Both the position numbers and the translations under genes were made by a program. Below are positions 38,468-40,576 of a stretch of 42,684 bases of DNA, piece by piece. Origin of the DNA: a virus (Duplodnaviria; Heunggongvirae; Uroviricota; Caudoviricetes); the IMG/VR virus record IMGVR_UViG_2529292907_000016; one strand, 5' to 3'. Within the stretch, counting starts at the first letter, position 1; each line of letters opens with the position of its first letter. The notes under the pieces were generated by a model that ran no database searches, was not told the origin of the DNA, and saw nothing but the letters and a program-made list of their open reading frames with translations.

Positions 38468-40576
38468 TCAGGCCAGAGGGTCATTTTCTTTTAATTTCGC
38501 TTCGAGCAACTGCAATCCCCGCTGGAAATTACGCTCGTATTCTTCATCAGGCTCATCATCAACGGCAGGTTGCTGAACGGTCACCGTATTACCCACAGGG
38601 CGGTATATGTTTTCCAGCCAGGGCTCCTGCGGCTTGTGCTCCAGCACGTTGACAACCTCATCCTCGGCATCACGGATTTTTTCCTCTGCGCGTTTACGCA
38701 TACCTTTAAGGCGTTGCTGCTGTTTGTAGTATTCCGCGCTGACCGGGAAGGCTTCGCGTTTATTGCCGTCCCATACCGCCTCGCAAATCACGCTGCCATC
38801 CGGGCGACGTACGGTAATTCGTTCGGCATCATGAATGTCATAGCTGATAAGCACCTTGCGGCCATGCTCATCACTCAGCTCGGGCGCGTAGTAAATATTA
38901 TTCAGCCAGCGTATTTCACAGCGTCTTACAGGGCGTTCCACCATTGGCCGGAACATATCCCGCAGCTCAACATCGGACAGCCATTCAATTTCCGTGTCCT
39001 CTTCTGCCAGGCGTTTTTTTCTGAACTCCGCCGGGCTGTAATGCTTCCCGTTCGGCTTCATGGGTAATTCATCGTGCGGCCGGTTGTTGTACCACTCAAC
39101 GCCATCACGAATGGCATCAATCAGTTCAGACTAGGACGGTAAATCACGCATCGCTGACTGTTGCCGGGCGTTCAGCCGTTTGCCCTGTTGCAGGGCGGTA
39201 AATGCCGAGCGTAAATCGCGGTTGGTTTTGCGTAACGTCTCGCGATCTGCACCTTTCCCGAAATAGGTGCGGTATTTACGGGCTATACGCATCGGTAACG
39301 TGCGGTTAAGCCGTTCGATAATGCCCCGTCCCTGCGGGTTACCGGCAATCCCGGTTGGGTGATTAATCCCCAGTCGCGGCAGGAGCCCCACAACTTCCTT
39401 ATCCAGGATGTCGGCGGTTTCCCCGGAACCGTTATCCGAGTAATACAGAAACGGTTTGCCGTGATTACGAATACCGTACTGTATGGCACCGGCTACGGCG
39501 AAAACATTTTCAGCCAGGTCAAGGCTCCAGCCCACCACAAAGCGCGTGCCACCGTCGATAACAAAGGTCACTTCCGGTGCAAATGGCCGCCCGTGAACCG
39601 GGTGCCTGCATTTCAGCTTCATGCCGTGACCGTCACCAATCCAGACATAATTCACCGGCATTCTGGACCAGTCGCGGCGCGTGAATCCCTCAAGCTGGCG
39701 GTATTCACTGCCGGTCACCCGGCCTTTTTGTTTCACCACTTCCGGCAGTTTCTTCATTGCGCGGCGGATGGTGTCGTAAGACGGCATGATATCGAGCATA
39801 TAAGGCTCATCAGCGTGCCGGTGCTGCCATTCAGCGACAAAATCCTCGTAAGCCTCGGTCATTGGTCGGCCGTTTGACTGGCGATACTGCGCCAGAAATT
39901 CGGGCAGCCAGTTAATATCTTCGGCTTTTATTTCCTGGCGCTTACCAGGTGCCAGCAAAAGCAGGCGTTCAGCGGCGTTCTGCGCCTTGTTAAAGGCTGC
40001 AATCCAGCGTTTCAGCGTGATTTCACTCAACGCACGGCTGTTTCCCTTTTTGGCGTTCGCCGTCTCAACCATTGCCACAATGCGCTCGTCCAGTTGCGAA
40101 CGTGCCAGGTTGTCAACGATAAACCGGATAGCCTTCGCACAGCTGAAACCAGGTTGTTGCGCGACTTTCAGAACTTCGCTGACGATCGCGATTCGTGCAT
40201 CAGCCACCTGGCGCTGGTTTTCAGTCAGGGCATTGAGGCGTTCGAGCATCAGTTGTGGTGATCCGCGATATGCCTCCACCGCATCAACCACGGCAGGTGA
40301 GCGCCTGGCCTTTGTCACTACCGGAGCCGGTGATTCATCGGCTTTTTGCGTCATCAGTTGCAGGGCATAGCGTTCGCGTACTGCCTGCTGAACAGTTAAA
40401 GGCAAAGCCCCTATTTCACACTCTAAAACTTTCCCTTTTACCCCTGGTTTTAGCCGCGTTTTCCACGCTTCCCTCTTTGCTTTTTTGTGCAGACCTGCCA
40501 AAGAACTAGGTAGGTCACTGAATGAAATCAATTCAGTCATTGCAACCCACATATTTCCTCCGCGCACGTCGTTCAT
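38468..40576 (-). pseudogene. A: MuA-like DDE transposase interrupted by an in-frame TAG (39131..39133); likely start at ATG ~40552
   Basis: ORFs 39131..40576 and 38468..39061 are in the same frame; the 23 codons between them are open and encode ...IDAIRDGVEWYNNRPH... of the integrase-like core. Confidence 0.75.

What the first reader, a model, noticed from the sequence alone, without database searches (positions are those of the whole stretch)
38468..40576. Transposase A carries a single in-frame TAG inside the catalytic core
The two A-gene ORFs are in the same frame, separated only by TAG at 39131-39133, and the 23 codons after it encode a conserved core segment (…IDAIRDGVEWYNNRPH…). Without suppression the protein would lack its C-terminal domains needed for B/ClpX interaction in Mu, so the prophage would be transposition- and replication-defective. 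Classical Mu genetics used A amber mutants, so a suppressor background could rescue it.
Basis: seen in the sequence. Interest (0 to 1): 0.7.

Follow-up and report, generated by a model that had tools for sequence, protein, structure and literature searches.

The report
Amber-stopped transposase in a decaying Mu-like prophage
The transposase gene of a Mu-like prophage sitting in the E. coli ycgV gene is broken by a real, inherited Trp-to-stop (TGG to TAG) mutation, one of at least three lesions in a prophage that is slowly decaying, which is an ordinary finding.

Summary
On the minus strand, a 473-codon ORF (true start ATG at 40552, not 40576) and the next 220 codons are one reading frame, interrupted only by TAG at 39131-39133.

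- **Ancestral codon:** five intact E. coli relatives inspected have TGG (Trp). Trp is kept in 79 of 92 distant homologues.
- **Not a sequencing error:** the same TAG is in ten loci from about nine different assemblies or samples. Every locus that includes host flank is at the same ychF-ycgV insertion site.
- **Source:** the window is 100% identical to contig AIFW01000016.1.
- **Position in the protein:** the stop lies 61 residues after the catalytic Glu (DDE = D307/D373/E413), at about MuA residue 433. It removes the conserved YN..PH helix, the beta-barrel and the whole C-terminal region.
- **Other lesions:** the same prophage has a 1-nt deletion in the tail-sheath gene and a 2766-bp IS66-family insertion in the baseplate V gene. 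Sister copies carry further IS insertions and a deletion.
- **Suppression:** no suppressor tRNA is encoded in the window.

Best reading: an ordinary loss-of-function mutation that immobilised a prophage now inherited vertically. A host suppressor could at most restore transposase, not phage production. Interest is low.

The parts
38468..40552 (-). Mu-type transposase gene A, now a pseudogene. It has 694 codons including the internal TAG; the stop codon TGA is at 38468-38470.
   Evidence: Translation. Full-length alignment to an intact 696-aa relative with one stop. Intact 2085-2091 nt CDSs in relatives. Pfam HTH_Tnp_Mu_1 and Mu-transpos_C.
39131..39133 (-). Amber codon TAG at codon 474. The ancestral codon is TGG (Trp), so the change is a G>A transition. 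The next base is T.
   Evidence: L001-L004 have TGG and L005-L014 have TAG. One search shows L015 A as intact full length. Trp in 79 of 92 and Phe in 10 of 92 distant homologues. Sequence context.
39134..40552 (-). The part still translatable: a 473-aa N-terminal product. It holds the winged-helix enhancer/operator-binding domain, the end-binding region, and the DDE residues D307 (39632-39634), D373 (39434-39436) and E413 (39314-39316).
   Evidence: Pfam PF02316. PDB 1TNS and 1G4D hits. Profile alignment to MuA 4FCY puts D307 and D373 on MuA D269 and D336; E413 is assigned from family invariance and the GIIER motif, not from a printed alignment to E392. Deposited as EHV60591.1 and STL50789.1, 'phage transposase'.
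38471..39130 (-). 220 codons no longer translated: the last conserved helix of the catalytic fold (W..YN..PH), the Mu-transpos_C beta-barrel and the C-terminal tail. The 197-aa ORF from ATG 39061 is an annotation by-product with no Shine-Dalgarno sequence.
   Evidence: Pfam PF09299 at residues 57-117 and rve_2 at residues 2-41. Conservation. Upstream sequence CACGATGAATTACCCATG lacks an SD.
37461..38393 (-). Intact MuB-like AAA+ target-DNA activator gene (310 aa).
   Evidence: PF09077 Phage-MuB_C at 2.5e-25 and AAA_22. 99.4% identical to the intact relative.
40533..40778 (-). Ner-like early regulator gene, overlapping the start of A by 20 nt.
   Evidence: PF13693 HTH_35 at 6.7e-27. Same arrangement in relatives.
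40995..41513 (+). Repressor c-like gene, intact. Its N-terminal domain is homologous to that of A.
   Evidence: PF02316. 99.6-99.9% DNA identity to the c-end of prophages in ten other E. coli genomes.
41817..41818 (-). Terminal TG of the prophage's c-proximal (left) end. The host gene ycgV starts at 41819. The other prophage end is outside the window, which begins at the last base of the mom CDS.
   Evidence: Homology to prophages at other chromosomal sites stops at 41818-41821. The flank is ycgV. Sequence. mom CDS coordinates.
8961..11726 (-). Second lesion: a 2766-bp IS66-family element with an 8-bp target duplication (TACTGCCT). It is inserted in the last codons of the baseplate V gene, just upstream of the GP46 gene.
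   Evidence: DDE_Tnp_IS66 at 2.7e-90; TnpB_IS66. It is absent from other copies that share the sheath frameshift (L016, L018, L019).
17811..19312 (-). Third lesion: the tail-sheath gene is split by a 1-nt deletion (A6 to A5) at about 18898. This is the only difference from the intact 1503-nt allele.
   Evidence: The same 195-aa truncated product is found on 11 contigs from several assemblies.

Best explanation
The A gene of this Mu-like prophage carries a genuine nonsense mutation, W474* (TGG to TAG).

**What the mutation does.**
- Translation should end 61 residues after the catalytic glutamate.
- The resulting 473-aa protein keeps the DNA-binding domains and the DDE triad.
- It lacks the last helix of the RNase-H-like core, the beta-barrel and the entire C-terminal region.
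- By analogy with MuA, such a protein cannot build an active transpososome, so the prophage can neither transpose nor replicate.

**What followed.** The immobilised element has since been inherited vertically at one site in ycgV. It has kept decaying, through a tail-sheath frameshift and an IS66-family insertion here, and through further IS insertions and a deletion in sister strains.

**Shown versus inferred.**
- Shown: the mutation, its ancestral state, its reproducibility, its position relative to the DDE residues and MuA, and the other lesions.
- Inferred: loss of activity, and that the mutation 'grounded' the prophage.
For: **The mutation and its ancestral state.**
- TAG and frame continuity.
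- TGG in four intact relatives read directly, and a fifth whose A protein is intact full length.
- 233 of 5426 complete E. coli genomes hold most of the gene, and the six copies whose annotation was inspected are intact CDSs.
- None matches the 81-nt stretch around the TAG exactly.

**Inheritance.**
- The TAG is in ten loci from NCBI draft genomes, an NCTC-type 4.9-Mb contig, Logan assemblies and human-gut metagenomes.
- The six loci with host flank share the same insertion site.
- A-gene DNA is 100% identical in eight loci and differs by one base in two.

**Selection before the stop.** Against the nearest intact allele there are 41 synonymous and 10 missense codon differences. The gene was therefore under purifying selection until recently.

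**Family and position.**
- A family profile hits MuA 4FCY (E = 4.9e-25), 1BCO (2.5e-15) and TnsB (2.1e-17).
- D307 and D373 align to MuA D269 and D336. E413 is the invariant family glutamate (equivalent to E415 of P0001).
- W474 corresponds to about MuA residue 433, inside subdomain IIalpha.
- PMC3362531 states that MuA subdomains IIalpha, IIbeta and IIIalpha are essential or insertion-intolerant, and that IIIbeta binds MuB and ClpX.

**Additional lesions.**. Sister copies have an IS1-family transposase gene plus a deletion (L006) and an IS30-like insertion in B (L007).

**No suppressor tRNA in the window.**
Against: - Loss of activity is inferred from MuA, which is only a distant relative. 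No truncation of this particular protein has been tested.
- The host's tRNA genes lie outside the window, so a chromosomal amber suppressor cannot be excluded.
- All other early genes (c, ner, B, kil, gam) and about 50 further genes are intact and nearly identical to functional-looking relatives. The decay is therefore young, and the order of the three lesions is only partly resolved: the IS66 insertion is later than the sheath frameshift, but the relative timing of the TAG is unknown.
Confidence: 0.9

Rival explanations
1. Conditional gene. The amber codon is read through, either by a host amber suppressor tRNA or by natural near-cognate decoding. Enough full-length transposase is then made and the prophage can still transpose.
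For: Only one base separates the allele from an intact gene, and B and the other early genes are intact. Phe occurs at this position in 10 of 92 homologues, so a Tyr-inserting suppressor might be tolerated. This last point is inference.
Against: - No tRNA gene is found in the window. The one tRNA-like element has no 7-nt anticodon loop and no CUA.
- The codon is followed by U. From established work on stop-codon context in E. coli (my own knowledge, not tested here), this is an efficient termination context.
- All flanked copies are at a single site, which argues against continued mobility.
- Tail genes are also broken, so phage production would not be restored.
Confidence: 0.04
2. Retained fragment. 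The 473-aa N-terminal product, which keeps the enhancer/operator-binding and end-binding domains and the DDE residues, is kept because it is useful. One possible use is as a dominant-negative inhibitor of incoming Mu-like phages. The split would then be an exaptation rather than simple decay.
For: - The truncated ORF is unchanged across many assemblies.
- It survives in DEC6A even though most of the prophage beyond gam has been deleted there (L006).
- Its N-terminal domain is homologous to that of the repressor.
Against: - Sequence identity among the copies reflects recent common ancestry, not selection.
- The gene lies behind the repressor-controlled early promoter. By analogy with Mu it would be silent in a lysogen.
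- Other broken transposases of this family exist, with frameshifts at different points (P0158, P0187), as expected from random decay.
Confidence: 0.04
3. Sequencing or assembly artefact in a draft genome.
For: The window is identical to a draft contig (AIFW01000016.1), and the sheath lesion lies in a homopolymer run.
Against: The same TAG is found in ten loci from about nine assemblies or samples from different projects and sources. It is a substitution, not a homopolymer indel. The sheath frameshift is also reproduced on 11 contigs.
Confidence: 0.01

Closest known systems
Bacteriophage Mu transposase MuA (PDB 4FCY, 1BCO, 1TNS) and classical Mu A-amber mutants
   Same: - The early-region gene order matches Mu (c, ner, A, B; also kil in both), and this prophage continues with gam, mor, lysis, head and tail genes, gin, com and mom.
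- N-terminal winged-helix domain shared with the repressor.
- Two of the three DDE residues align directly to MuA (D269/D336); the third is assigned from family invariance. A beta-barrel follows the core.
- The effect of the amber codon is the same in kind as a laboratory A-amber allele: no functional transposase without suppression.
   Different: - A very distant relative. A single-sequence search finds only domain Ialpha of MuA, and a 92-sequence profile is needed to reach the core.
- MuA appears to have Ala, not Trp, at the equivalent position, about 433.
- The C-terminal tail is unrelated in sequence, so MuB and ClpX contacts are only presumed.
- The allele is natural and lineage-fixed, not a laboratory mutant.
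Intact Mu-like prophages of E. coli, found in O157:H7 and other STEC genomes and annotated as 'inserted Bacteriophage Mu-like phage' in Stx phages LC727881 and LC727895. Sp18 of O157 Sakai is the published example (PMC2669165).
   Same: - 95-97% nucleotide identity over the A gene and 96-100% over most of the genome, with the same gene order.
- The immunity region is 99.6-99.9% identical to that of ten listed E. coli prophages, four of them in O157:H7 strains.
   Different: - Those copies have an uninterrupted 694-696-codon A gene and lie at many different chromosomal sites.
- This one has W474*, a sheath frameshift and an IS66-family insertion.
- Identity to Sp18 itself was not tested. PMC2669165 predicts Sp18 to be intact.
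Defective or 'grounded' prophages that decay by point mutation, IS insertion and deletion
   Same: Multiple independent lesions in one element, vertical inheritance at a fixed site, and further IS insertions and a deletion in sister strains.
   Different: Nothing unusual. The decay is early-stage, with about 50 genes still intact.

Membership tests
MuA-type (Mu/Tn7 TnsB-like) DDE transposase | DDE catalytic triad in an RNase-H-like (rve) core that can be aligned to MuA D269/D336/E392 | tested here: met
   D307 and D373 align to MuA D269 and D336 in the profile-versus-4FCY alignment, with numbering verified on the Mu sequence. E413 was not aligned to E392 in any output. It is assigned as the invariant family glutamate in the GIIER motif. 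All three positions are invariant in 92 homologues.
MuA-type (Mu/Tn7 TnsB-like) DDE transposase | N-terminal winged-helix domain (Ialpha) homologous to the phage repressor | tested here: met
   PF02316 at 8.6e-09 in A and 1.6e-06 in c. PDB 1TNS (MuA Ialpha) and 1G4D (Mu repressor) hits.
MuA-type (Mu/Tn7 TnsB-like) DDE transposase | Beta-barrel subdomain (Mu-transpos_C, PF09299) after the catalytic core | tested here: met
   PF09299 at 8.7e-18. It is encoded downstream of the TAG, so it is absent from the translated product.
MuA-type (Mu/Tn7 TnsB-like) DDE transposase | Adjacent MuB-like AAA+ partner gene and Mu-type genome organisation | tested here: met
   PF09077 Phage-MuB_C at 2.5e-25 immediately downstream. 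Gene order c, ner, A, B, kil, gam, mor, lysis, head, tail, gin, com, mom.
MuA-type (Mu/Tn7 TnsB-like) DDE transposase | Element ends 5'-TG...CA-3' with a 5-bp target duplication | tested here: inconclusive
   The c-proximal end starts with TG at 41818. The other end and its flank are outside the window, so the duplication cannot be read.
MuA-type (Mu/Tn7 TnsB-like) DDE transposase | Transposition activity; C-terminal contacts with the B protein and ClpX | not testable with these tools
   Requires biochemistry or genetics. The C-terminal tail has no detectable similarity to MuA IIIbeta.
Pseudogene by nonsense mutation | In-frame stop inside an otherwise colinear, conserved ORF, with a sense codon in homologues | tested here: met
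   One stop in a full-length alignment. TGG in intact relatives. Trp or Phe in 89 of 92 distant homologues, none of which ends before family position 600.
Pseudogene by nonsense mutation | Reproducible in independent sequence data | tested here: met
   Ten of ten loci from about nine assemblies or samples carry TAG.
Pseudogene by nonsense mutation | No compensating suppressor or recoding signal | tested here: inconclusive
   None is found in the window. Host tRNA genes are not available here.
Programmed stop-codon readthrough | The stop codon is conserved at the site across functional homologues | tested here: not met
   The stop is confined to one allele. All other family members examined have a sense codon.

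The most novel reading that the evidence does not exclude
The nonsense allele is not just decay. The 473-aa product keeps the enhancer/operator-binding and end-binding domains and the DDE triad, but has no beta-barrel or C-terminal region. It could be made at a low level and poison the transpososomes of incoming or co-resident Mu-like phages. The host would thereby gain a transposase-derived defence, and this could explain why the early region survives even where the rest of the prophage has been deleted (DEC6A copy).
Probability: 0.03. Interest if true: 0.5.

Novelty: already known. Interest (0 to 1): 0.1.

Why it matters
It matters little beyond annotation. The two 'phage transposase' proteins deposited for this locus (473 aa and 197 aa) are halves of one pseudogene, and the prophage should be scored as defective: no transposase, a broken tail sheath and an IS in the baseplate operon. 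It is a tidy example of how a transposable prophage becomes fixed in a host lineage. The shared lesions could also serve as clonal markers for the lineage that includes the DEC6 strains.

Tried and rejected
- **Single-sequence search of the PDB.** With the Trp-restored protein it reached only MuA domain Ialpha, the Mu repressor and retroviral integrases. A 92-sequence profile was needed to align the core to MuA.
- **AlphaFold2 model.** Built for the closest intact homologue from a shallow 21-sequence alignment, it was poor (mean pLDDT 51, pTM 0.29). It was not used and no fold search was run.
- **Suppressor tRNA in the window.** ARAGORN found none and Rfam at gathering threshold found none. 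A tRNA-like element surfaced only with relaxed filters. It has an abnormal anticodon arm and no CUA, so it was rejected as a suppressor.
- **Same allele in complete genomes.** No exact match to the 81 nt around the TAG was found among 5426 complete E. coli genomes.
- **Re-initiation at ATG 39061.** Rejected as a route to a functional C-terminal protein: there is no Shine-Dalgarno sequence, and none of the 92 aligned homologues shows a natural split at this site.
- **Relaxed selection after the stop.** Missense differences are 4 in 220 downstream codons against 6 in 473 upstream. These numbers are too few to say anything.
- **Literature.** Searches found no paper on this particular prophage or allele.
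- **Host amber suppressors.** Not scanned for, because the host genome is not available through these tools.

Full report
**Observation**

On the minus strand, the ORF 39131..40576 ends with TAG at 39131-39133. The same frame continues for 220 more codons to TGA at 38468-38470. The first 23 of these codons read SELIDAIRDGVEWYNNRPHDELP, before the ATG at 39061 that an ORF finder uses as the next start.

The upstream boundary needs one correction. The functional start is the ATG at 40552, not 40576. It has GGAGG upstream with a 4-nt spacer. It is the start annotated in intact relatives. It gives an N-terminus, MWVAMTEL, that aligns with residue 3 of MuA. The gene therefore has 694 codons and the stop is codon 474.

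**Ancestral state**

Four intact relatives read directly have TGG at this codon: prophages in E. coli O157:H7 Balcarce_24.2, OkiPb01678, CV261 and JKHS016. A fifth, in isolate AF39, has an intact full-length A protein. The change is a single G>A transition, Trp to amber.

The gene is found at 80% coverage or more in 233 of 5426 complete E. coli genomes, and the six copies whose annotation was inspected are uninterrupted 694-696-codon CDSs. None of the complete genomes matches the 81 nt around the TAG exactly; the best has two mismatches.

In an alignment of 92 homologues at about 30-40% identity, the position is Trp in 79 and Phe in 10. The residues just after it (Y488, N489, H493 in this protein) are each kept in 90 of 92. 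None of the 92 ends before family position 600.

**Real or artefact**

The exact 197-aa downstream product is indexed in 28 blocks of the public assembly collection. Ten loci were fetched and all have TAG, preceded by the same 473-aa ORF in most (456 aa and a cut 389 aa in two loci, from different gene calls). They come from two NCBI draft genomes (AIFV01 and AIFW01), a 4.88-Mb contig (UGFP01), Logan assemblies and human-gut metagenomes. The source of AIFV01 names the protein 'phage transposase [Escherichia coli DEC6A]'.

The six loci that include host flank are all at the same site, beside ychF and inside ycgV. The window itself is 100.000% identical, without gaps, to AIFW01000016.1. A-gene DNA is identical in eight of the ten loci and differs by one base in the other two. 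This is an inherited allele in one lineage.

**Where the stop falls in the protein**

Pfam finds the Mu DNA-binding domain (PF02316) in the upstream part. In the downstream part it finds the tail of an integrase core (rve_2) and Mu-transpos_C (PF09299).

A single-sequence search of the PDB reaches only MuA domain Ialpha and the Mu repressor, so this protein is a distant cousin of MuA. A profile built from the 92 homologues hits MuA 4FCY (E = 4.9e-25), the MuA core 1BCO/1BCM (2.5e-15) and CAST TnsB (2.1e-17).

In that alignment, D307 and D373 fall on MuA D269 and D336. I checked the numbering on the Mu genome sequence. The third catalytic residue, E413, is the invariant family glutamate in the GIIER motif; no output aligned it directly to MuA E392. 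The YN motif aligns with MuA F447-N448, which puts W474 at about MuA residue 433, inside catalytic subdomain IIalpha.

The product keeps the three catalytic residues. It loses the last conserved helix of the core, the beta-barrel and everything C-terminal to it. PMC3362531 summarises that MuA subdomains IIalpha, IIbeta and IIIalpha are almost entirely intolerant of insertions. It states that IIIbeta carries the MuB and ClpX contacts and that all subdomains are needed for efficient transposition in vivo. Loss of activity here is an inference from that, not a measurement.

**Context: the prophage has other lesions**

The window is a Mu-like prophage. It runs from the last base of the mom CDS at position 1 to its c-proximal end at 41818, followed by ycgV.

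I compared it gene by gene with an intact relative, isolate AF39 (NZ_OZ547136.1), which is inserted in dcyD. About 50 genes are full length. Most are 98-100% identical; the early region runs at about 90-96%, and ner and c are a different immunity type (about 40%). Apart from the TAG there are two further defects:

- **IS66-family insertion.** A 2766-bp element with an 8-bp target duplication (TACTGCCT) occupies 8961-11726. It replaces the last seven codons of the baseplate V gene and separates the downstream tail genes from upstream transcription.
- **Tail-sheath frameshift.** The tail-sheath gene differs from the intact allele by a single change, the loss of one A from an A6 run at about 18898. 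This splits the gene. The truncated 195-aa product is on 11 contigs from several assemblies, so it too is real.

The IS is absent from some prophages that share the sheath frameshift (L016, L018, L019), so it came later. Sister copies of the TAG allele show further decay. One has an IS1-family transposase gene plus loss of most of the prophage (L006). Another has an IS30-like element in B (L007).

**Timing**

Against the nearest intact allele (97.4% identical), the A gene has 41 synonymous and 10 missense codon differences. This is the signature of a gene that was under purifying selection. Together with the near-identity of all TAG copies, it says the nonsense mutation is recent relative to allele divergence.

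**Suppression**

ARAGORN finds no tRNA gene in the window, and Rfam finds nothing at gathering threshold. A tRNA-like element at 23739-23818 (+), annotated 'tRNA-OTHER' in the relative, scores 31 bits against the Rfam tRNA model with relaxed filters. Its anticodon arm is replaced by a longer segment without a 7-nt loop or a CUA triplet, so it is not a suppressor.

The TAG is followed by T. From established work on stop-codon context in E. coli (my own knowledge, not tested here), this is an efficient termination context. Host tRNA genes are outside the window. Even with suppression, the sheath and baseplate lesions would still block phage production.

**Comparison with what is known**

The element works like Mu and meets the sequence-level criteria of a MuA-type transposase: the DDE triad (two residues aligned directly to MuA), the repressor-like N-terminal domain, the beta-barrel, an adjacent MuB-like ATPase and Mu gene order. 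Its protein is far from MuA itself.

Its close relatives are the Mu-like prophages common in E. coli, including STEC and O157:H7. Sp18 of O157 Sakai is the published example and is predicted to be intact (PMC2669165). I did not test identity to Sp18.

Broken transposases of this family with frameshifts elsewhere are present in the protein library (P0158, P0187). Pseudogenisation of prophage mobility genes, followed by IS insertion and deletion, is the standard route of prophage decay.

**Verdict**

The suggested link to laboratory amber genetics and rescue by a suppressor has no support and could not restore a viable phage. This is an ordinary, already-understood kind of feature.

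Noticed in passing
window 8961-11726: A 2766-bp IS66-family element (533-aa DDE_Tnp_IS66 transposase, a TnpB_IS66 ORF and a small upstream ORF) with an 8-bp target duplication TACTGCCT. It is inserted in the 3' end of the baseplate V gene. It is present in only some carriers of the sheath frameshift.
   Followed up: yes
window 17811-19312, deletion at about 18898: The tail-sheath gene is split by loss of one A from an A6 run, the only difference from an intact allele over 1503 nt. The same truncated product occurs in prophages that differ by 1-1.5% elsewhere. The broken sheath segment therefore seems to be shared by descent or recombination among mosaic prophages.
   Followed up: partly
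window 23739-23818 (+), between the virion-morphogenesis and minor-head genes: A tRNA-like element on the strand opposite to the late genes. It scores 31 bits against Rfam tRNA (gathering score 29), but only with relaxed filters. It has good acceptor, D and T arms, but a 24-nt segment replaces the anticodon arm. ARAGORN does not call it, and PGAP labels the homologous site 'tRNA-OTHER' in a relative. Its function is unknown.
   Followed up: partly
window 2227-4281 (-): A 684-aa cargo gene between gin and mom with a SASA (sialate O-acetylesterase-like) domain and DUF6645. It is followed by small DUF1378 and DUF826 genes. It is conserved at 99.9-100% in related prophages. It has no counterpart in phage Mu that I know of; I did not compare it with the Mu genome.
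   Followed up: no
window 4367-6864: A gin-type recombinase gene next to an invertible tail-fibre segment. Partial tail-fibre copies at 5001-5143 and 6212-6352 match the relative in inverted orientation. There is also a tail-fibre-assembly gene on the opposite strand.
   Followed up: no
window 38468-42684 versus 1-8960: Strong mosaicism. The c-end and immunity region is 99.6-99.9% identical to prophages in other E. coli genomes, including O157:H7. The rest of A is only 95-97% identical to anything in complete genomes. The mom-gin-tail-fibre end is 100% identical to prophages in unrelated strains whose c and ner are of a different immunity type (about 40% amino-acid identity).
   Followed up: partly
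L006 and L007 (sister copies of this prophage): In AIFV01 (DEC6A) an IS1-family transposase gene sits after gam, and most of the prophage is deleted up to treA. In UGFP01 an IS30-like element interrupts the B gene. These are independent further steps of decay in the same lineage.
   Followed up: partly
window 1: The window begins exactly at the last base of the mom CDS. The mom-proximal prophage end and its host flank are therefore missing, and the 5-bp target duplication cannot be checked.
   Followed up: yes
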